From a virus: a stretch of 64,000 nt of DNA. Positions 2,608 through 14,340 of the stretch are shown here, in pieces. Numbering within the stretch: the first letter of the stretch is position 1; every line of letters starts with the position of its first letter. The position numbers and the translations under genes were made by a program. The stretch lies in IMG/VR virus record IMGVR_UViG_3300032235_000653, positions 1 through 64,000 of that record, one strand, 5' to 3'. Under the pieces are notes generated by a model that made no database searches, was not told where the DNA came from, and was given only the letters and a program-made list of their open reading frames with translations.

Positions 2608-5039
2608 GCGATATCAAAAAATTATTAGAAACAATGGATCGCATGTCTACCGTAGAGCGTAAACCCTCAGGCCCAAAATTTCCTGGCTATTGGAAAGGTA
2701 CGGATCCTGCCAGCAAAGCCAAAGATAAAATGGTGGGCGGCTGCGAAGAAAGCATAATTAAGGATTTGAATAAAATATCTAAAGAAAAAGTCACCGAATG
2801 GCAACTGCAAGAAAAATTTGATAAATTTAAAGAACAGCAAAGTTATACTGGTATAGATCCCACTGTTCGTCAACGTATGGGTATGCCGGCGGCCACAGCA
2901 GATGAGATAAGATCTTACATTGAAAAAAATCCACCGGCAATAAAAGCAGGGGACGGATATCTTACAACTAACACCGGCGTAGGACTTGACCCCAATAAAC
3001 CAGTTGTTCCTGAACCTGTTCTATCTGGTGGTCAATTGGATGTTATTCGTGCAGCAGCTAATGCTGCCGGAATAGGCCCTGACAAAAAAGTTGATTTAAC
3101 CTCTACGCCATCTGCAGTCCCAACAGCAGCAGCACCACCACCAATTAGTAGAAATGCTCCAGTAGGTAGTGCAGCTTTAGATCCTACATTAAATCCAGAC
3201 TCGGCAACTAGTATCCCCGGCGGTCAGAGCGCAGGCGGTGCAGGCGTAGTACCTACAAAATCAATATCTTCAATACCAATCAGATCGCGAAACCCTACGG
3301 CAGGCAGCTGGCAAGATATTTGGAAAAATAATCCTAACATTAAAAATCCTAATTTAATTTATCCAGGACAAGAAATTAAATTACCTAACGGAACATCCGC
3401 TATTGTCGACAAAGGTGATACTTTAAGCAGCATTGCTGATAGATATAAACAAGGCGGTTATAATACTGGAACAGAAGTCGGCCCAAGTAATACCAGTCCC
3501 GCACCTGCTACAACTAGAGCTCCGGCAACTGCACCTGCTGCTAGATCGGCACCTGCTGCATCAAGGCCGCAACCAAGAGCAGTACCGCCAACAAGTTTTG
3601 ATCCGCCCGGGCCTGACACTGACACTAGTGATCGACCAGTACCTGCGGTTAGGAATCAGCCTGCTGCTCCTGCCAATGCTGCAACACCCAGAACAGCGCA
3701 CACCCCAGGCACTCGTGTAACTACTCAAATCAGAGATCCGCAGGATCCTAATAAGCCTTTAAGTATTCAACTAAAGAAAGGCGATGATGGCAGTTGGTAC
3801 GATGATCGTGGCCGCAAACTTAATTTTAATAAACCTGGTGATTTAGAGAAATTGGAAAATTTACCAGCAGATGCTCCCACGTTTATGGATAAAATGAAAA
3901 GAGTGCTGGGAGGTGAACTACCGTCTAGGGCATTTGGACAACCTAAGCCTCAGCAAAATCAACCAGCACCGGCAACACAGCCGCCGGCCAGGCCTGCAAC
4001 TCAACCAGCAGCTCCAAGGTCTAATTCATCATCTTCAAAAACTGATCAGTCAGGCATGGCATCCTATGCAACAAAAGGTGGTAGAGTTTATGCAGCCGAC
4101 TTTAACAATCCCAGTGGGCTAGGCTGGGATGGCAAAGGAAAGTATACCAGTTATAAAACTCCCGAAGAAGGTGTTAATGCTACCAAAGATTTAGTTTCGC
4201 GATACTTAACTGATCGAACTCCATACATTAAAGGACCTGCCACTCCGGAACAAGTAGTCAGTACATGGGTAACTGGAGGCAAAACACCAGCTGATAAAAT
4301 TCAAGGCGGCAGATACCTTCAATCAGTTAAAGACGAGCTAGCGGCAGCTGGTGTTAAATTAGATGCTAAAGGAAGAATACCACATTCACAGGCTGCAACT
4401 GATGCTATTACAAGAGCCATCGTTCGTCACGAAACTTCTCCTAAGCACATGGAAAAGTTTGCACCTTTTCTAACTGCGCCAAAAGATGGAAAAGGGTCAA
4501 TTGAGGAATCAAACAAAGAAGATGAAAAAATTGCAGGGCGCTATGATCCTGATGAATTTGATCTTATGGTTAAACGATTAGGTCAAAGAGCTCGAGAACA
4601 AGATCGTAAGCATGGACCTGTTGATATTGCTGCACTGGCAAAAAGATTACGTGCAATAGAAAAACGTGAACAGACCAAAGAACAAGAAGATCCTGCTGTG
4701 AATATGCAGGATCCTGATGTACAAAGAACTAGTCAAACCAGTCCACAACAAGATCCTGCAGCAGTTAGACAACAACAGCTAGATCAAACGGTTGATCTAG
4801 CCACTGCTAAAGGCACTATGAGTGGATTAAAAACAGCATTAGGACCTGACGTAGATACAAATGCATTGGCCAGTGCTGTTACGAAAATAAGCGACGGCAA
4901 ACCTTTGACAGGCCCCGAATCGACGTCAATGAGTGCTCTTACACCTTTGATAAGTAAAGCAGCAGAGACTCCACAAACTGCCATGGCACTTAAAACAGCA
5001 TTGAGTAATGCTGGTATGTTGGCCAAGCAAGGAAAGTAA
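2604..5039 (+). CDS. Virion protein with LysM-like and lysozyme/transglycosylase-like segments
   Basis: WQDIWKNNPNIKNPNLIYPGQEIKLP...VDKGDTLSSIADRY (LysM halves). NNPSGL...YKTPEEG...AIVRHE resembles phage virion muramidase-like domains. Confidence 0.6.
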   Translation: MSDIKKLLETMDRMSTVERKPSGPKFPGYWKGTDPASKAKDKMVGGCEESIIKDLNKISKEKVTEWQLQEKFDKFKEQQSYTGIDPTVRQRMGMPAATADEIRSYIEKNPPAIKAGDGYLTTNTGVGLDPNKPVVPEPVLSGGQLDVIRAAANAAGIGPDKKVDLTSTPSAVPTAAAPPPISRNAPVGSAALDPTLNPDSATSIPGGQSAGGAGVVPTKSISSIPIRSRNPTAGSWQDIWKNNPNIKNPNLIYPGQEIKLPNGTSAIVDKGDTLSSIADRYKQGGYNTGTEVGPSNTSPAPATTRAPATAPAARSAPAASRPQPRAVPPTSFDPPGPDTDTSDRPVPAVRNQPAAPANAATPRTAHTPGTRVTTQIRDPQDPNKPLSIQLKKGDDGSWYDDRGRKLNFNKPGDLEKLENLPADAPTFMDKMKRVLGGELPSRAFGQPKPQQNQPAPATQPPARPATQPAAPRSNSSSSKTDQSGMASYATKGGRVYAADFNNPSGLGWDGKGKYTSYKTPEEGVNATKDLVSRYLTDRTPYIKGPATPEQVVSTWVTGGKTPADKIQGGRYLQSVKDELAAAGVKLDAKGRIPHSQAATDAITRAIVRHETSPKHMEKFAPFLTAPKDGKGSIEESNKEDEKIAGRYDPDEFDLMVKRLGQRAREQDRKHGPVDIAALAKRLRAIEKREQTKEQEDPAVNMQDPDVQRTSQTSPQQDPAAVRQQQLDQTVDLATAKGTMSGLKTALGPDVDTNALASAVTKISDGKPLTGPESTSMSALTPLISKAAETPQTAMALKTALSNAGMLAKQGK

Positions 5040-7546: not shown

Positions 7547-7981
7547 ATGGATGAATTAATTAAAGCAATGAAGATAGCGTTTGCTACAGAGTTTAGTTTT
7601 TACCTAAAAGCACATTTCTATCACTGGAATGTAGAAGGACCGGACTTTCAAGAATATCACAGTTTATTCGGCGGTATCTACGAAGAAGTATATGGCAGCA
7701 TTGATGCATTTGCGGAAAACATTCGCAAGTTAGGCAGCTATACTCCAGGTAGCTATACTCGTTTTAGTATGCTATCACAGGTCAATGATGAAATTGAAGT
7801 ACAACCTGCTATGACTATGATTCAAGAATTGTTATCAGACAGCGATAAAACTGCCAAGTTATTTAAAATGGTCTACGATCTAGCAGAACGTGAAGGAAAA
7901 CATGGCATCAGTAACTTCCTAGCAGAACGCATGGACGCACATGATAAACACAGCTGGATGTTAAGAGCCAGTTTAAAATAA
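7547..7981 (+). CDS. dps: Dps/ferritin-like DNA-protection protein
   Basis: KAHFYHWNVEGPDFQEYHSLF...D.FAENIRKLG ferroxidase signature; C-terminal HDKHSWML. Confidence 0.93.
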   Translation: MDELIKAMKIAFATEFSFYLKAHFYHWNVEGPDFQEYHSLFGGIYEEVYGSIDAFAENIRKLGSYTPGSYTRFSMLSQVNDEIEVQPAMTMIQELLSDSDKTAKLFKMVYDLAEREGKHGISNFLAERMDAHDKHSWMLRASLK

Positions 7982-7986
7982 GCTCA

Positions 7987-8694
7987 ATGGCTGAATTTTT
8001 ATACCTTCTTATAGCAACCCATATTACCATAGTATGTGTTACTGTTTTTTTACATCGAGGACAAGCACATCGAGGATTAACTTTTAGTCCTGTGCTAAGT
8101 CATTTAATGAGATTCTGGTTATGGTTAACCACAGGCATGGTAACCAAGCAATGGGTGGCCATACATCGCAAGCATCACAAAGACACAGATGTAAAAGGCG
8201 ATCCTCATAGTCCATATATATTTGGAATTATCCCCGTGTTGTTTGGTGGAGCATTCTTATATCATCAAGCCAGTAAAGACAGTGTTATGGTAAATCAATT
8301 TGGTGTAGGAACGCCCGATGATTGGTTAGAAAAAAATGTCTATGCTAAACACAGTCGTTTAGGTGTTAGTTTGTTATTGGCTATAAATTTACTATTTTTT
8401 TCCTGGTGGGGATTGTTAATCTGGGCAATACAAATGATTTGGATACCTTTTTGGGCAGCAGGTGTTGTCAACGGACTTGGGCACTGGTGGGGTTACCGCA
8501 ACGGTAATTCCAAAGATCGCAGTACTAACATTAGTCCAATAGGGGTTATCATTGGTGGCGAAGAGCTTCACAATAATCATCATTTAGAACCTGGAAATCC
8601 TAAATTAAGTCGTCGTTGGTTTGAAGTTGACATGGGTTGGGTATGGATACAAATTTTTAAATTTACAGGTTTATTAAAAATAAGGGCACTGTAA
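7987..8694 (+). CDS. Membrane fatty-acid (delta-9 type) desaturase
   Basis: His boxes HRGQAH, HRKHH and ELHNNHH; hydrophobic segments. Confidence 0.92.
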   Translation: MAEFLYLLIATHITIVCVTVFLHRGQAHRGLTFSPVLSHLMRFWLWLTTGMVTKQWVAIHRKHHKDTDVKGDPHSPYIFGIIPVLFGGAFLYHQASKDSVMVNQFGVGTPDDWLEKNVYAKHSRLGVSLLLAINLLFFSWWGLLIWAIQMIWIPFWAAGVVNGLGHWWGYRNGNSKDRSTNISPIGVIIGGEELHNNHHLEPGNPKLSRRWFEVDMGWVWIQIFKFTGLLKIRAL

Positions 8695-9260
8695 TGAGAA
8701 TCAATGAAGTAAATTCTCTTTCTTTAAAAGGCAGTCTAGGCGTCAATCTGACAGAAAGCAAATTTTGGGCATTCACTGAGCTCAGCGAGATTAAAAATAA
8801 GTTTGATACTATTTACATATTAGGCAGTTGGTACGGCAATGCCGGTTTATTGCTTAGTATGGATCCCAGATTCGAATTTGACGAAATCATTAACGTTGAA
8901 AAAAATAAAAACATGTTAAAGGTCAGTGGTCAACTTGCAAAATTACAAAAAGATTCCAGAATAAAATCCATGCATAAAGACGCTAACCGTTTAGATTATA
9001 GACGCCTAGGCCCCGATGGGTTAGTAGTTAATTTTAGTTGTACTAATATTTCTGGCGATGATTGGTTTGAACGTATTCCCTCTGATACTATGATACTTTT
9101 ATCAGGAAGAAACAACGACTCAGGTGCTGTGCATAAATTCAATAGCGTAGAAGAATTTTCTTCTACTTATCCATTAACCAAAATTTTGTTTTCTGGTCAG
9201 AGAACTTTCGAAGATCCCGAAACTGAATACGATGCGTATTTGGTAATTGGAACAAAATAG
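8694..9260 (+). CDS. Class I SAM-dependent methyltransferase-like protein
   Basis: IYILGSWYG motif I-like, INVE, DAN and VVNFSC; N-terminal MRINE leader. Confidence 0.6.
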   Translation: MRINEVNSLSLKGSLGVNLTESKFWAFTELSEIKNKFDTIYILGSWYGNAGLLLSMDPRFEFDEIINVEKNKNMLKVSGQLAKLQKDSRIKSMHKDANRLDYRRLGPDGLVVNFSCTNISGDDWFERIPSDTMILLSGRNNDSGAVHKFNSVEEFSSTYPLTKILFSGQRTFEDPETEYDAYLVIGTK

Positions 9261-9340
9261 ACCTGTGCCTTAGGACCGGGTGGGCGGGAACCCTAGCCCT
9301 TATAAACAAATTCGCTACTTGTTTATGTTAATAGGGTTCA
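9261..9340 (+). ncRNA. Candidate structured RNA with segments antisense to 23S rRNA H69-H71
   Basis: GC-rich island. Stems gaacccta/tagggttc (9288-9295/9332-9339) and ataaacaa/ttgtttat (9302-9309/9319-9326). CCTTAGGACCG and loop TTCGCTAC are complementary to CGGUCCUAAGGUAGCGAA. Confidence 0.45.
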
Positions 9341-9920
9341 TTTTACATTTCTCACCATGCCATTGTAAGATATTAGATATTGAACATTCTTTATGACAGT
9401 GAATACAGCACATTCTTCTTTTAGGAACACCTAATTGCCATTTTGAGTGTTTCTTTTTATTTTCGAAATTCCATTTCCAACCACCTTTCTGCTTTTTCGG
9501 CGTCTGCTTTTTCGGGGTATTTTTGTCTTTTATTTTATAACCCTTTGCGGCATACGTTCGTTTAACCGATTCCGAAAGCTTTGCCTTATGGTCAGATGTC
9601 ATTGGTTTTAATTTTATACCCTTAACTCCTCCGCCCCAAAGACCGTCTTCTATTTTTAAATTTGCCCATTCATCCGACTCGACTATATTGTTTTCTATAG
9701 AGAATTTAGTTGCAAATTCTACTAATTCTTCTTTATCGTGAAATAACTGACACCACACAGTAGTGACATCATTGCCGTATTTGTTTAAATGTCTTGACCA
9801 TAGCTTACCTGATCCTTTATAATTAAGCACATTTGTTTTAACAGTCTTCCCGAAGTATTTTAACCCAGTGATATTGTGTTGTTTAATATAAAGGTAGGTT
9901 GATTTAAAATAAATACTCAT
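9315..9920 (-). CDS. GIY-YIG-type (Seg-like) free-standing homing endonuclease
   Basis: N-terminal YLYIKQHNITGLKYFGKT...YKGSG; basic NUMOD-like region and a C-terminal CIHC Zn motif; oriented opposite to its neighbours. Confidence 0.75.
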   Translation of the reverse strand: MSIYFKSTYLYIKQHNITGLKYFGKTVKTNVLNYKGSGKLWSRHLNKYGNDVTTVWCQLFHDKEELVEFATKFSIENNIVESDEWANLKIEDGLWGGGVKGIKLKPMTSDHKAKLSESVKRTYAAKGYKIKDKNTPKKQTPKKQKGGWKWNFENKKKHSKWQLGVPKRRMCCIHCHKECSISNILQWHGEKCKMNPININK

Positions 9921-11123: not shown

Positions 11124-11390
11124 ATGAGCGATTACAATCGAAGTTTTAATGGCGACGCAAAAATCAAGTTGACCCAACTTATTAACGAGGGTATGACTGT
11201 TCTTCAAGAAATCGAAGACTTGAATACTGGTCTGAACGAAACTATCAAAGCCATTGCAGAAGAACTAGAGATTAAACCTGCTACATTAAAAAAAGCCGTT
11301 AAAATTGCACACAAAGCCAAACTAGGCGAAACTAATCGAGATCACGACGAACTTAACACTATTCTCGAAACAGTGGGCAAGACTCTTTGA
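11124..11390 (+). CDS. Small helical dsDNA-binding protein (T4 DsbA/GapR-like)
   Basis: 88 aa; EIEDLN...IKAIAEELEIKPATLKKAVKIAHK pattern; good SD. Confidence 0.55.
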   Translation: MSDYNRSFNGDAKIKLTQLINEGMTVLQEIEDLNTGLNETIKAIAEELEIKPATLKKAVKIAHKAKLGETNRDHDELNTILETVGKTL

Positions 11391-11674
11391 ACGATTTATT
11401 GTATCATACCTTTGCATGGATTAAAGATGATTGGAAGTCTAATCCTTTACGCTTTGTTGTCGAGTTGCTTGCTTGGGGGATTAGTATTGGCTGTAGTATC
11501 ACTATGGCAGTCACCGTCCCCAATCCACCGCTTATTATTCTTTATCCAATTTGGATTAGCGGTTGTGCTATGTATGCTTGGGCTGCTTGGACTCGCAGGT
11601 CGTTTGGGATGCTAGCTAACTACATACTTTTAACCGTCATCGACACTGTTGGACTAGTAAGGATGGTAATGTAA
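11387..11674 (+). CDS. Small membrane protein
   Basis: Three hydrophobic segments; translationally coupled to both neighbours. Confidence 0.65.
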   Translation: MNDLLYHTFAWIKDDWKSNPLRFVVELLAWGISIGCSITMAVTVPNPPLIILYPIWISGCAMYAWAAWTRRSFGMLANYILLTVIDTVGLVRMVM

Positions 11675-14340
11675 TGTCATATGTGGACGCACTATTCGAT
11701 AAACAAAAAGATCGTATTCACGTGGTAGAGCGTGTCAATGGCTCTCGCGAATATAAGGAATATCCAGTCAACTATATATTTTATTATGATGACCCTAAGG
11801 GAAAACATAGGACTATATACGGCACTCCTGTAACCAGATTTGCCACCCGTAACGGTAAAGAATTTCAAAAAGAATTACGGATGCAGAATGGTAAAAGACT
11901 ATGGGAAAGCGATTTTAAACCTGTATTTAGATGCCTTGAAGAAAACTATCTCGGTGCTGAACCACCTAGGTTGCAAACGGCGTTCTTCGACATTGAAGTT
12001 GACTTTGATCCGCAGCGAGGATTTAGTCCAGTCTCAGATCCATTTAACAAAATCACTGCTATCAGTATCTATTTAGATTGGCTAGATAAATTAGTAACAT
12101 TGGCCATCCCTCCAAAGTCAATGAGCTGGGAGACCGCCGAAGAAATTTGTGCTAAATTCAGTGACTGTTACATTTTCGACAGAGAAGAAGATATGTTAGA
12201 TACATTTCTTAATCTCATCGATGACGCAGACATCTTAAGTGGGTGGAACAGCGAAGGATATGATATTCCCTATACTGTTGGCCGTATTACTCGAGTATTA
12301 AGCAAAGACGATACTCGACGACTTTGTTTATGGGGACAATTTCCTAAACAGCGAGAATTTGATCGATTCGGCGCCACTAATATTACTTTTGATTTAATTG
12401 GCAGAGTTCATTTGGACTACATGCAATTGTATCGTAAGTACACTTATGAAGAACGTCACAGCTATAGTCTGGACGCAATTGGCGAATATGAACTAGATGA
12501 AAGAAAAACTGCCTACGAAGGCACATTGGACCAATTATATAATAAAGACTTTGAAAAGTTTTTAGAGTATAACAGGCAAGACACTCGCTTGCTTGCTAAA
12601 CTAGACAAGAAGCTACGTTTCTTGGATTTGGCGAATACCATTGCTCACGATAACACGGTGTTATTGCAGACAACAATGGGCGCAGTTGCAACCACAGAAC
12701 AGGCAATTATCAATGAAGCACACAGTCAAGGATTGGTCGTTCCTAATAGGAAGGGCAGAGAAGAAGATGGAGACACCCAAGCGGCAGGTGCCTATGTTGC
12801 TTATCCCAAAGTCGGGATGCACAAATACATCGGAGCAATTGACATCAACAGTCTCTATCCCTCGGCCATCCGATCGCTTAACATGGGACCAGAAACAATT
12901 GTAGGACAGTTGCGTCCTGTAATGACAGATCGTTACATCAAAGAAAAAATAGATGGGGGAGATAGCTTTGCGGCCGCATGGGAAGGATTGTTTGGTAGCT
13001 TAGAATACGAAGCAGTAATGCGTGGAGATCCCGGAGTAGAAATTACCATCGACTGGGAAGCAGATGGCACCAGTGATGTATGCAGTGCTGCCGATGTATG
13101 GCGTATTATATTTGACAGTAATAAGCCTTGGATTTTAAGTGCCAACGGCACTATTTTTACCAGCGAGCATAAAGGTATTATCCCAGGCCTACTAGAAAGA
13201 TGGTATGCTGAACGTAAACAGATGCAGGCCAAACTTAAAGAATCCGCCACGCCTGAAGATCAAGAGTATTGGGACAAGCGACAGCTAGTTAAGAAAATTA
13301 ATCTTAATAGCTTGTATGGTGCTATCTTAAATCCAGGATGCAGATTTTTCGACAACAGAATCGGTCAAAGCACTACACTAACTGGACGAGCTATTGCTAA
13401 ACACATGGACAGTTTTGTCAACGAATGTATATTCGGCAAATATGATCATATAGGAGATTCTATTATTTACGGTGACACTGATTCTGTTTACTTCAGTGCG
13501 TGGCCGGCCGTGCAAGCAGATGTCGAAGCTGGTCGCATGGAATGGAACAAAGACATTGCTGTTCAACTATACGACAGTATTGGAGAACAAGTTAATCAAA
13601 GCTTTCCGGGTTTCATGGAACGAGCATTTCATTGCCCCCGACAAAATGGATCTATTATTAAAGGTGGTCGAGAGCTTGTAGCCATTTCTGGTTTGTTTAT
13701 TAAGAAAAAGCGATATGCGGTTCTTATCTACGACAAAGAAGGCAAACGCCTAGATGTCAAAGGCGCAGAGGGCAAAGTAAAAGCCATGGGCCTAGACTTA
13801 AAAAGAAGCGATACTCCGAAAGTGGTACAAGACTTTTTAAGTGAAATTTTGTTGGACGTACTTACTGGTGCTGAACGTGAATCGATTATCGAAAAAGTAA
13901 AAGAATTTAAAATTAAATTTCAAGAGCGTCCAGCATGGGAAAAAGGAACTCCCAAACGAGTTAATAACTTAACCAAGTACACTGCCGATGAAGCCCGACA
14001 AGGTAAAGCAAACATGCCCGGTCATGTACGAGCGGCTATGAACTGGAACAATCTGCGTCGTATGCACAGTGACAACTATAGTATGCAAATCGTAGATGGT
14101 ATGAAAGTTATTGTTTGCAAACTGAAAAACAATCCTCTGGGATATACCAGCGTAGCTTATCCCACAGACGAAACACATATCCCTCAATGGTTTAAAGATT
14201 TGCCTTTTGACGACAACCTGATGGAAGAAGGCATTGTGGACCAAAAAGTAGAAAATTTATTAGGTGTATTGAAATGGGAAATTTCAGAAAATACAGATAT
14301 CAATAGTACATTTGATACTTTGTTTAACTTTTCAGATTGA
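11674..14340 (+). CDS. Family B DNA polymerase with 3'-5' exonuclease
   Basis: FFDIEVD (ExoI), GWNSEGYDIPY (ExoII), YNRQD (ExoIII), DINSLYPS, KINLNSLYG, YGDTDS and KKRYA. Confidence 0.97.
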   Translation: MSYVDALFDKQKDRIHVVERVNGSREYKEYPVNYIFYYDDPKGKHRTIYGTPVTRFATRNGKEFQKELRMQNGKRLWESDFKPVFRCLEENYLGAEPPRLQTAFFDIEVDFDPQRGFSPVSDPFNKITAISIYLDWLDKLVTLAIPPKSMSWETAEEICAKFSDCYIFDREEDMLDTFLNLIDDADILSGWNSEGYDIPYTVGRITRVLSKDDTRRLCLWGQFPKQREFDRFGATNITFDLIGRVHLDYMQLYRKYTYEERHSYSLDAIGEYELDERKTAYEGTLDQLYNKDFEKFLEYNRQDTRLLAKLDKKLRFLDLANTIAHDNTVLLQTTMGAVATTEQAIINEAHSQGLVVPNRKGREEDGDTQAAGAYVAYPKVGMHKYIGAIDINSLYPSAIRSLNMGPETIVGQLRPVMTDRYIKEKIDGGDSFAAAWEGLFGSLEYEAVMRGDPGVEITIDWEADGTSDVCSAADVWRIIFDSNKPWILSANGTIFTSEHKGIIPGLLERWYAERKQMQAKLKESATPEDQEYWDKRQLVKKINLNSLYGAILNPGCRFFDNRIGQSTTLTGRAIAKHMDSFVNECIFGKYDHIGDSIIYGDTDSVYFSAWPAVQADVEAGRMEWNKDIAVQLYDSIGEQVNQSFPGFMERAFHCPRQNGSIIKGGRELVAISGLFIKKKRYAVLIYDKEGKRLDVKGAEGKVKAMGLDLKRSDTPKVVQDFLSEILLDVLTGAERESIIEKVKEFKIKFQERPAWEKGTPKRVNNLTKYTADEARQGKANMPGHVRAAMNWNNLRRMHSDNYSMQIVDGMKVIVCKLKNNPLGYTSVAYPTDETHIPQWFKDLPFDDNLMEEGIVDQKVENLLGVLKWEISENTDINSTFDTLFNFSD

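What the first reader, a model, noticed from the sequence alone, without database searches (positions are those of the whole stretch)
9261..9340. Candidate phage RNA with two segments complementary to adjacent parts of 23S rRNA helix 69-71
Seen: a GC-rich structured element. CCTTAGGACCG (9268-9278) is the exact reverse complement of CGGUCCUAAGG. TTCGCTAC (9311-9318), displayed in the loop of a perfect 8-bp hairpin, is the reverse complement of GUAGCGAA. An outer 8-bp stem (gaacccta/tagggttc) closes the hairpin. Known: CGGUCCUAAGGUAGCGAA is the highly conserved 23S segment at E. coli ~1920-1937 (H69 3' strand into H70/H71, intersubunit bridge region; also the I-CeuI site and a group I intron hotspot). 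The two guides abut on the target but are in permuted, padlock-like order. G9267 could add a G-U pair with U1931. Inference: a phage sRNA that clamps or remodels the ribosome, guides modification or repair of rRNA (a methyltransferase-like gene is directly upstream), or acts as an rRNA decoy on the minus strand. Caveat: an 11-mer match to rRNA alone is expected by chance in 64 kb. The case rests on target adjacency, intergenic position and loop display.
Basis: partly seen in the sequence, partly recalled or inferred. Interest (0 to 1): 0.85.

Follow-up and report, generated by a model that had tools for sequence, protein, structure and literature searches.

The report
Phage RNA antisense to 23S rRNA
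This huge lake phage carries one copy of a small folded RNA, shared by hundreds of uncultured phages and absent from RNA catalogues, whose exposed loops complement the helix 69-71 part of bacterial 23S ribosomal RNA, so it probably pairs with host large-subunit rRNA, though no experiment has tested this.

Summary
The element (9260-9342, + strand) belongs to a large structured-RNA family that is not in Rfam. The family has a P1 hairpin, an H-type pseudoknot (S1/S2) and a P3 hairpin, all with strong covariation. Two pattern scans of IMG/VR each stopped at the 120-stretch limit. Five near-complete (92-100%) 320-374 kb genomes hold 1, 2, 0, 1 and 1 copies.

The host phages are uncultured freshwater jumbo myoviruses related to Rak2 and Atu_ph07. 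The RNA starts at an upstream stop codon and usually lies upstream of a dsbA-like gene and PolB.

Loop 1 (core CCUUAGG) is antisense to 23S 1924-1930. The P3 loop comes in interchangeable versions. Class A (this window) is antisense to 1930-1937. Classes C and D are antisense to 1968-1978, the opposite strand of the same rRNA helix (H70). An antisense scan of all E. coli rRNA peaks only at H69-H71 (46 against 25.3 ± 3.0).

Other phages carry contiguous antisense to the same stretch in 3' UTRs. Selection for 23S complementarity is therefore well supported, but the effect on ribosomes is untested.

In this window a GIY-YIG-like homing endonuclease cassette has replaced the RNA's 3' two-thirds while keeping its fold and loop.

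This scan has flagged the same RNA theme in at least eight other genomes.

The parts
9260..9342 (+). Whole structured RNA element, a member of the family
   Evidence: Covariance model R1 scores 59.8 bits, E 3e-13. It is the only significant hit in the window and in the 99.8-kb record.
9258..9260 (+). TAG stop codon of the upstream gene; its G is the first base of the RNA
   Evidence: ORF 8694-9260. In 130 loci the RNA nearly always abuts the stop codon of a same-strand ORF.
9261..9265 (+). P1 5' strand (ACCUG)
   Evidence: MFE fold. Family stems ACUCG/CGAGU, ACACG/CGUGU, AUUUGG/CCGAAU and ACCUG/CGGGU covary.
9277..9281 (+). P1 3' strand (CGGGU)
9268..9278 (+). Loop 1 / guide 1, CCUUAGGACCG, antisense to 23S C1920-G1930; the family-invariant core is CCUUAGG
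   Evidence: In sets chosen without reference to this loop, CCUUAGGACC is found in 25 of 36 members and the UUAGG core in nearly all.
9282..9285 (+). Pseudoknot stem S1, 5' strand (GGGC)
   Evidence: Covariation GC/CG/AU/GU at alignment columns 40-44 with 52-60.
9296..9299 (+). Pseudoknot stem S1, 3' strand (GCCC)
   Evidence: model alignment.
9288..9295 (+). Pseudoknot stem S2, 5' strand (GAACCCUA), inside the S1 loop; this is the endonuclease-associated allele
   Evidence: Other members pair GCU/AGC, GGU/ACC, GCUAC/GUAGC or GCCAC/GUGGC at the same places.
9332..9339 (+). Pseudoknot stem S2, 3' strand (UAGGGUUC)
9302..9309 (+). P3 5' strand
   Evidence: The three apical P3 pairs are 94% paired across the family, with changes on both sides in all three.
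9319..9326 (+). P3 3' strand
9310..9318 (+). P3 loop AUUCGCUAC (class A); 9311-9318 is antisense to 23S G1930-A1937
   Evidence: Class A makes up 89 of 128 members in a set not selected on this loop.
9315..9920 (-). GIY-YIG-like homing endonuclease ORF (201 aa); its last 9 codons are the 3' arms of P3 and S2, and its stop codon lies in the P3 loop
   Evidence: phrog_655 homing endonuclease, E 3.4e-4. N-terminal YLYIKQHN...KYFGKT motif. 43 relatives sit in varied viral contexts. Close relatives L002-L011 lack the ORF.
9288..9918 (.). Inserted cassette: sequence that differs from endonuclease-free close relatives
   Evidence: The window and L002-L011 are identical up to 9287, then unrelated until the downstream gene. 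The same S2 allele (GAACCC / GGGUUC) travels with the endonuclease in L012 and L217.
8694..9260 (+). Upstream gene, class I SAM-dependent methyltransferase fold, substrate unknown
   Evidence: AlphaFold pLDDT 87. Foldseek top hits are KsgA, PH1948 RNA methyltransferase, METTL5 and NodS, E about 1e-7, TM 0.5-0.67. No Pfam hit.
11124..11390 (+). dsbA-like small DNA-binding protein, the most constant downstream neighbour of the RNA
   Evidence: phrog_12534 at 2.5e-18; Phage_DsbA weak. 75 homologues lie downstream of the RNA in 130 loci.
11674..14340 (+). T4-type family B DNA polymerase, a synteny and taxonomy anchor
   Evidence: Pfam DNA_pol_B, phrog_262 at 4.8e-196. 52% identity to Sinorhizobium phage Phosso and 47% to Atu_ph07.

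Best explanation
Positions 9260-9342 encode, on the + strand, one member of an undescribed family of 80-115-nt phage RNAs. A conserved scaffold holds two loops out in single-stranded form. The scaffold is a P1 hairpin, an H-type pseudoknot (in most members CGGCUGCUG ... AAAGUGAGC) and a P3 hairpin. The loops have been selected to be antisense to domain IV of bacterial 23S rRNA. Loop 1 matches the 3' strand of H69 plus the linker (1920/1924-1930). The P3 loop matches either strand of H70: 1930-1937 in this window, 1968-1978 in other members.

The RNA is made as the tail of the upstream gene's transcript. It most likely acts by base-pairing with 23S rRNA while those strands are still unpaired, that is, on nascent or late-assembly pre-50S particles. 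Pairing would keep H69 and H70 from forming and so interfere with or remodel maturation of the subunit-interface bridges.

Shown here: the fold, the family, the strand and the non-random complementarity. Inferred: that pairing actually happens, at which stage, and what it does to the ribosome.
For: (1) Structure. Across 106 distinct sequences 86.8% of cells are paired, against 63.3% in shuffles. The covariation score is 0.62 against 0.20 shuffled and 0.04-0.10 for slid partners. 14 of 15 pairs show changes on both sides.

(2) Close relatives keep both loops, apart from an A-to-G change in the P3 loop of some that would keep pairing to U1931 as G-U, while both P3 and S2 stems are completely rewritten with compensation.

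(3) Strand. G-U pairs outnumber A-C 81 to 20. The RNA is on the same strand as its flanking ORFs.

(4) Target. Loop 1 gives an 11-nt match and the class A loop an abutting 8-9-nt match to 23S.

(5) Independent replicate. In sets not selected on the P3 loop, classes D (ACGCCAUUC) and C (UUACGCCAG) complement 23S 1968-1976 and 1971-1978. This is the strand that pairs with 1933-1941 in H70.

(6) Scan of all 868 75-nt windows of E. coli 16S, 23S and 5S with the six loop consensuses. The antisense score is 46 at H69-H71, against a mean of 25.3 (sd 3.0) and a best of 31 elsewhere. The sense control peaks at 30 and the reversed control at 34.

(7) Other phage contigs carry contiguous or re-joined antisense to the same stretch in intergenic or 3'-UTR positions, some followed by intrinsic terminators: L361, L362/L363, L358, L384, L392.

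(8) The 59-nt target sequence is identical in E. coli and in a genome of the order of the Haliscomenobacter (Bacteroidota) assembly, one of two Bacteroidota assemblies that hold the RNA.

(9) Synthetic PNA antisense to H69 blocks translation and growth of E. coli (Kulik 2017, as cited in PMC12828698).
Against: No expression or binding data exist. In mature 50S the target strands are base-paired (H69, H70) and lie at the subunit interface, so pairing would need unfolded rRNA or a helicase. Class B loops (AGUCGUGC, 19%) match 23S 1964-1971 only with one mismatch (shuffle p about 0.06). Class E (3%) has lost the loop, so loop 2 is dispensable. In many members the outer bases of 'guide 1' are paired inside the RNA, in P1 or an inserted hairpin. 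Class C carries an internal GGCGU that can pair with its own P3 loop in 6 of 6 members. One complete relative genome lacks the RNA, as do the cultured relatives Phosso and Atu_ph07. No natural precedent for an RNA that pairs with 23S rRNA was found in the papers searched.
Confidence: 0.5

Rival explanations
1. A cis-acting element of the polycistronic mRNA, such as a 3'-end stabiliser, processing site or atypical terminator. A phage or host protein reads its conserved loops, and the rRNA complementarity has no function.
For: The RNA always starts at the stop codon of the upstream ORF. It is followed by promoter-like TTGACA or TAAATA boxes, or in many members by a U-tract after S2. The pseudoknot core is more constant than loop 2.
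Against: This requires the unique antisense peak at H69-H71 and the contiguous-antisense RNAs in other phages to be coincidences. The window member has no canonical terminator.
Confidence: 0.17
2. A cis ribosome tether. After termination at the adjacent stop codon the RNA holds the 50S or 70S by pairing with H69-H71, to favour re-initiation on the next cistron. This would be a large-subunit analogue of the calicivirus TURBS.
For: The stop codon abuts the RNA in nearly all loci, and the next ORF starts 0-60 nt downstream in most. From established knowledge, H69 is moved by RRF and EF-G during ribosome recycling.
Against: The distance to the next start varies and promoter-like boxes often intervene. 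Re-initiation needs the 30S subunit, not the 50S. At termination loop 1 would lie inside the mRNA channel.
Confidence: 0.1
3. A guide or splint for an enzyme acting on 23S domain IV. Examples: it directs RNase III-type cleavage, blocks or directs methylation at nearby m5U1939 or m5C1962, or shields the site from a single-strand-specific toxin RNase.
For: A methyltransferase-fold gene is adjacent here and within two ORFs upstream in 29 of 130 loci. Its weak, non-significant best sequence hits are to RlmI, the m5C1962 enzyme. In class A the two duplexes would stack into about 18 bp.
Against: No protein partner is consistently linked, and the neighbours vary. Classes A and D would give different geometries at the target. 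No C/D or H/ACA features and no Rfam match were found.
Confidence: 0.1
4. The functional strand is the minus strand or the DNA itself: an rRNA-like decoy, or a homing-endonuclease target.
For: The minus strand carries 23S-identical words, and a homing endonuclease gene has inserted here.
Against: G-U pairs outnumber A-C 81 to 20, which favours the + strand. The rRNA words are split and permuted. Most members have no endonuclease nearby.
Confidence: 0.03

Closest known systems
Loop-presenting antisense RNAs (CopA/CopT of plasmid R1, RNA I/RNA II of ColE1, Sok/hok); from my own knowledge
   Same: Short conserved complementary tracts are displayed in hairpin loops on a stable scaffold, which suits fast 'kissing' initiation.
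   Different: Those RNAs are cis-encoded against their own replicon's transcript and are fully complementary to it. Here the target is host rRNA, two separate loops address adjacent or neighbouring segments, and the scaffold is a pseudoknot.
3'-UTR-derived trans-acting small RNAs (CpxQ, SroC, MicL type); from my own knowledge
   Same: Lies at the end of a protein-coding transcript, directly after the stop codon. Related phage versions end in intrinsic terminators (L361, L384).
   Different: The target would be rRNA, not mRNA. This member has no terminator or U-tail. Hfq dependence is unknown.
Viral mRNA elements complementary to rRNA: calicivirus TURBS motif 1 (18S h26) and the BYDV-like translation element (18S); from my own knowledge
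   Same: A short invariant rRNA-complementary tract inside a structured viral RNA next to a stop codon.
   Different: Those are eukaryotic, address the small subunit, use single-stranded accessible rRNA sites and act in cis. Here the target is bacterial 23S, on strands that are helical in the mature subunit.
Synthetic antisense PNA against 23S H69 (Kulik et al. 2017, cited in PMC12828698)
   Same: Same target helix. It shows that antisense to H69 can inhibit translation and growth of E. coli.
   Different: It is an artificial oligomer aimed at H69. The phage RNA covers only the 3' strand of H69 plus H70.
   Same: Small RNAs proposed to act directly on ribosomes rather than on mRNAs.
   Different: Those are host-derived fragments not known to bind by extended rRNA base-pairing. 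This is a dedicated, structured, virus-encoded RNA.
Group II intron EBS2/EBS1 recognition of IBS2/IBS1; from my own knowledge
   Same: Same 'padlock' order: the 5' loop pairs with the 5' target segment and the 3' loop with the adjacent 3' segment, and both guides sit in loops.
   Different: No intron domains, no reverse transcriptase, only about 80 nt. There was no Intron_gpII or Intron_gpI hit.

Membership tests
Any Rfam 15 family | Covariance-model match at or near the gathering score | tested here: not met
   No hit overlaps 9260-9342 even at E <= 10. There were none on seven other members' loci at E <= 1.
tRNA / tmRNA | Cloverleaf or tmRNA architecture detectable by ARAGORN | tested here: not met
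   No tRNA or tmRNA gene in the 64-kb window.
Rho-independent terminator | G+C-rich hairpin directly followed by a U-tract | tested here: not met
   No + strand terminator-like site at 9260-9350. The tail after S2 reads AUUUUACAU. Some other members do have U-tracts.
Box C/D or H/ACA guide RNAs | C (RUGAUGA) and D (CUGA) boxes, or a pseudouridylation pocket plus an ACA box | tested here: not met
   No such boxes in the sequence. No snoRNA-type Rfam match on the element. The guide order is the reverse of an H/ACA pocket.
Group I / group II intron guide regions | Catalytic core domains next to the guide sequences | tested here: not met
   No Intron_gpI or gpII match. The element is about 83 nt and bounded by ORFs.
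The new family itself (model R1) | P1 with a CCUUAGG loop, S1/S2 pseudoknot and P3 hairpin, lying directly after a stop codon on the coding strand | tested here: met
   59.8 bits, E 3e-13, full-length match. All helices are present. The S2 allele differs (GAACCCUA/UAGGGUUC) but still pairs.
Trans-acting base-pairing sRNA | A discrete stable transcript and demonstrated pairing with its target | not testable with these tools
   No RNA run holding this DNA was listed. The evidence is complementarity only.

The most novel reading that the evidence does not exclude
A modular, 'programmable' viral RNA device against the ribosome. A constant pseudoknot scaffold carries exchangeable guide loops that address different strands of 23S H69-H71. 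It might work as a trans-acting ribozyme, as a guide for a nuclease or modifying enzyme, or as an assembly trap that shuts down production of new host 50S subunits. If so, it would be the first natural RNA known to target large-subunit rRNA by base-pairing.
Probability: 0.3. Interest if true: 0.95.

Novelty: categorically new. Interest (0 to 1): 0.85.

Why it matters
No natural RNA, viral or cellular, is known to act by base-pairing with 23S rRNA. The target is among the most conserved and functionally central parts of the ribosome: H69 forms bridge B2a and H71 forms bridge B3, beside the decoding centre. It is also a known hotspot for mobile elements and a proven target for synthetic antisense.

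A family present in hundreds of large aquatic phages, with interchangeable guide loops, would reveal a new route of host takeover. It would also offer a natural blueprint for rRNA-directed antisense design and a probe of late 50S assembly. The idea is directly testable with a roughly 85-nt RNA and a standard E. coli ribosome toolkit, because the target sequence is identical in E. coli.

Tried and rejected
Rfam and ARAGORN found nothing.

BLASTN of the region against cultured phages gave no match. Model R1 gave no significant hit in the complete genomes of the nearest cultured relatives, Phosso and Atu_ph07 (best E 0.2).

The look-up of sequencing runs listed no RNA holder. Only DNA runs from freshwater and lake metagenomes hold the stretch.

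No sense copy of the 23S target exists in the window that could serve as a phage-encoded partner.

The S1 loop CGGCUGCUG is a perfect 9-nt complement of 16S 519-527 (the 530 loop). With two G-U pairs it also matches 23S 1902-1910. I do not count this as a guide. The loop is the 5' strand of pseudoknot stem S2. Its variants (GGCUUCUG, GGGUGCUG, GCUAC, and GAACCCUA in this window) follow the S2 partner, not the rRNA.

Energy-based RNAduplex scans of single loops are not decisive. Loops A, C and D have near-equal alternative sites, and B and E do not point to H69-H71 at all. Class B (p about 0.06) and class E (p about 0.29) give no significant match on their own.

The 15-mer TTACGCCATTCGTGC found 49 viral stretches. 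Almost all looked like chance or coding matches; only L384 and L392 were informative.

L364 and L365 are true rDNA in IMG/VR contigs. L359 looks like a 23S gene interrupted at about position 1920. All three were excluded.

The assemblies holding the RNA had no 23S contig to compare. Only 1 of 31 relatives held the rRNA stretch.

PDB sequence searches for the endonuclease, the 390-aa downstream protein and the methyltransferase-fold gene gave nothing significant.

The paper cataloguing 8,495 IMG/VR candidate structured RNAs (PMC10690425) may contain this motif as an unnamed entry. Its supplementary files are not held, so this could not be checked.

Full-text searches found no description of the RNA.

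Full report
**What is at the coordinates.** CCTTAGGACCG is at 9268-9278. TTCGCTAC is at 9311-9318, in the 9-nt loop of a perfect 8-bp hairpin (9302-9309 / 9319-9326). GAACCCTA (9288-9295) is complementary to TAGGGTTC (9332-9339). The first 40 nt are 70% G+C in a roughly 35% G+C region.

The element starts at the G of the TAG stop codon of a + strand gene (8694-9260). Its last 26 nt overlap the 3' end of a minus-strand ORF (9315-9920), whose stop codon lies in the hairpin loop. No tRNA and no Rfam family matches.

**The genome.** The window is part of a 99.8-kb IMG/VR virus record estimated at 28% complete. It has a T4-type family B polymerase. The best cultured relatives of that polymerase are the 350-490-kb jumbo myoviruses Phosso (52%), Atu_ph07 (47%), 121Q, GAP32 and CBB. 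DNA runs that hold the stretch come from freshwater and lake metagenomes.

Ten contigs encode a 93-97% identical upstream protein but lack the minus-strand ORF. They keep the first 28 nt of the element unchanged. They keep the loop as AUUCGCUAC, or as AUUCGCUGC, a change that would keep pairing to U1931 as G-U. Both downstream stems are replaced by different, still complementary sequences.

Laid side by side, they show a common architecture:
- P1, a hairpin or internal loop carrying CCUUAGGACC, sometimes with an inserted hairpin.
- S1, a 4-5-bp stem whose loop is usually GGCUGCU.
- P3, a hairpin carrying the second loop.
- A tail, usually AAAGUGAGC, that pairs back into the S1 loop. This makes S2 and so an H-type pseudoknot.

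On the MAFFT alignment of 109 members, 86.8% of cells pair, against 63.3% in shuffles. The covariation score is 0.62, against 0.20 shuffled and 0.04-0.10 when partners are slid. 14 of 15 pairs show double changes. P1 also covaries: ACUCG/CGAGU, ACACG/CGUGU, AUUUGG/CCGAAU, ACCUG/CGGGU. G-U pairs outnumber A-C 81 to 20, so the + strand is the folded strand.

In this window it is 8 bp long, with a sequence found only in endonuclease-carrying alleles.

**Copy number and context.** A covariance model (R1) finds one copy in the window and in the whole record. Five near-complete (92-100%) 320-374-kb relatives hold 1, 2, 0, 1 and 1 copies. The second copy in one genome lacks P1. Phosso and Atu_ph07 have none.

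In 130 loci the RNA nearly always abuts the stop codon of a same-strand ORF. The next ORF usually starts 0-60 nt downstream. The most constant neighbours are downstream: a dsbA-like 86-102-aa protein and the polymerase. Variable proteins of about 365 aa, one family of them radical SAM, are sometimes inserted between.

Two hits in genome assemblies are both in Bacteroidota bins, Lishizhenia and Haliscomenobacter. This is a weak hint at the host.

**Is the rRNA complementarity more than chance?** E. coli 23S contains the 32-mer around the site in all 5426 genomes searched. The 18-mer begins at annotated 1914, which is C1920.

The first scan forced both loops to be exact, so I built two sets that did not. 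One used 78 loci fetched through the dsbA-like protein; 38 of them carry the RNA. The other used 128 distinct members fetched through the S1 loop and tail only.

In these sets loop 1 is CCUUAGGACC in most members, with an almost invariant CCUUAGG/UUAGG core.

The P3 loop falls into classes:

| Class | Loop | Count of 128 |
|---|---|---|
| A | core CGCUAC, mostly AUUCGCUAC | 89 |
| B | AGUCGUGC | 24 |
| C | UUACGCCAG | 6 |
| D | ACGCCAUUC | 4 |
| E | loop deleted | 4 |
| other | - | 1 |

Class A is antisense to 1930-1937. Class D is a 9-nt antisense to 1968-1976 and class C an 8-nt antisense to 1971-1978. Class B matches 1964-1971 with one mismatch.

In the accepted secondary structure (my own knowledge), positions 1933-1941 and 1968-1976 are the two strands of H70. 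An MFE fold of the E. coli stretch reproduces this. Different members therefore address either strand of the same rRNA helix, next to the H69 3' strand addressed by loop 1.

I scanned every 75-nt window of E. coli 16S, 23S and 5S with the six loop consensuses. The antisense score peaks uniquely at H69-H71: 46, against a mean of 25.3 (sd 3.0) and a best of 31 elsewhere. Sense and reversed controls reach only 30 and 34. Shuffle p-values within the region are 1.5e-4 (loop 1), 6e-3 (A), 1e-3 (D), 6e-3 (C), 0.06 (B) and 0.29 (E).

**Other architectures.** The contiguous antisense 18-mer occurs in eight IMG/VR contigs. Three of these are true or interrupted rDNA. The others are intergenic or 3'-UTR tracts of 19-44 nt antisense to 23S, on the coding strand. 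One is directly followed by an intrinsic terminator: L361, L362/L363, L358.

Two more contigs join antisense to 1964-1978 with antisense (partly diverged in L392) to about 1920-1937, skipping H71. Both are followed by terminator-like hairpins: L384, L392.

Antisense to this one rRNA stretch therefore recurs on unrelated scaffolds. That is hard to explain except by selection for pairing with it.

**What weakens the idea.** Nothing shows expression or binding.
- The target strands are helical in the mature subunit.
- Loop 2 can be replaced by a poorly matching sequence (B) or lost (E).
- The outer bases of guide 1 are often paired within the RNA.
- Class C carries an internal GGCGU able to pair with its own loop in 6 of 6 members.
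- The 9-nt complementarity of the S1 loop to the 16S 530 loop is probably incidental, because variation there follows the pseudoknot partner.

**Mechanism.** The best-supported reading is a loop-presenting antisense RNA, produced as the tail of the upstream transcript, that pairs with 23S domain IV while H69 and H70 are unformed. That means nascent or late-assembly pre-50S. Pairing would interfere with maturation of the interface region. Synthetic PNA against H69 does inhibit E. coli translation and growth (Kulik 2017, cited in PMC12828698).

I put about 0.7 on 'the loops are selected for pairing with this 23S sequence' and about 0.5 on the fuller statement. The rivals are in their own sections: a protein-binding cis element, a post-termination tether, an enzyme guide or shield, and a minus-strand or DNA role.

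**The endonuclease.** The minus-strand ORF has a weak homing-endonuclease profile match and a GIY-YIG-like N-terminal motif. Its relatives sit in many unrelated viral contexts.

Identity with endonuclease-free relatives ends at 9287. From 9288 on, the S2 5' strand, S1 3' strand, P3 and S2 3' strand all belong to the inserted allele. Even so, the pseudoknot, the P3 hairpin and the AUUCGCUAC loop are rebuilt, and the ORF's last nine codons and its stop are written in them. The same allele accompanies the endonuclease in L012 and, on a different P1 background, in L217. The RNA gene is thus a homing site, and the RNA is evidently worth preserving.

**The methyltransferase.** The upstream 188-aa protein has no Pfam hit but folds confidently (pLDDT 87) as a class I SAM methyltransferase. 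Its best structural matches mix rRNA and small-molecule enzymes. Its weak best sequence hits to RlmI are not significant. The family lies within two ORFs upstream of the RNA in 29 of 130 loci, so a functional link is unproven.

**Novelty.** The RNA is not in Rfam 15 and not in any paper found by full-text search. It may be an unnamed entry among the 8,495 IMG/VR candidates of PMC10690425, which could not be checked.

Earlier notes of this scan report the same theme in at least eight other genomes. They are not independent evidence.
- the P3-loop classes that address both strands of H70;
- the whole-rRNA scan with controls;
- the re-joined antisense variants;
- the endonuclease-borne allele.

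Noticed in passing
window 9288-9920: A GIY-YIG-like homing endonuclease cassette has replaced the 3' two-thirds of the RNA gene. It carries its own compensating S2 and P3 strands, and the ORF's last 9 codons and stop codon are dual-coded with the RNA. The same allele is seen in L012 and L217.
   Followed up: partly
window 8694-9260: A 188-aa protein with no Pfam hit folds as a class I SAM methyltransferase (pLDDT 87). Its weak best sequence hits are to RlmI, the 23S m5C1962 enzyme, and are not significant.
   Followed up: partly
window 9285-9293 and most family members: The usual S1 loop CGGCUGCUG is a perfect complement of 16S 519-527 (the 530 loop). With two G-U pairs it also matches 23S 1902-1910, the H69 5' strand. 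This window's allele lacks it, and variants track the pseudoknot partner.
   Followed up: partly
L361:835-852; L362 and L363; L358; L384:9680; L392:9488: Unrelated phage contigs carry contiguous or re-joined antisense to 23S 1920-1978 in 3' UTRs or intergenic regions. Several are followed by intrinsic terminators. These are other architectures of the same theme.
   Followed up: partly
L357:1501-1578 (G034:C1:76943-77020): A second, shorter paralogue in one complete 353-kb genome. It has S1/S2 and P3 with a UCGCUAC loop, but no P1 hairpin and a degenerate loop 1 (CCUUAAAC).
   Followed up: no
L215, L184, L261, L268, L284 (class C members): Class C RNAs have extra hairpins after P1. They also have a conserved single-stranded GGCGUCA that can pair with their own UACGCCAG loop. 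This could be a self-masking or mimic element.
   Followed up: partly
window 4829-4848: AAAAACAGCAUUAGGACC resembles the 5' flank plus loop 1 of the family (7.7 bits, E 2.5). It is probably a chance match.
   Followed up: no
window 7547-8694: A ferritin-like gene (7547-7981) and a compact fatty-acid desaturase (7987-8694) lie just upstream. These are auxiliary metabolic genes also noted by earlier readers in related phages.
   Followed up: no
L359:143-160; L364; L365: Some IMG/VR 'viral' contigs contain true 23S rDNA. One 23S-like sequence breaks off exactly at position 1920, as if interrupted by an intron or insertion.
   Followed up: no
L350, L351: The only two genome-assembly hits for the RNA are in Bacteroidota bins (Lishizhenia and Haliscomenobacter). 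They may be mis-binned phage contigs and give a weak host hint.
   Followed up: no
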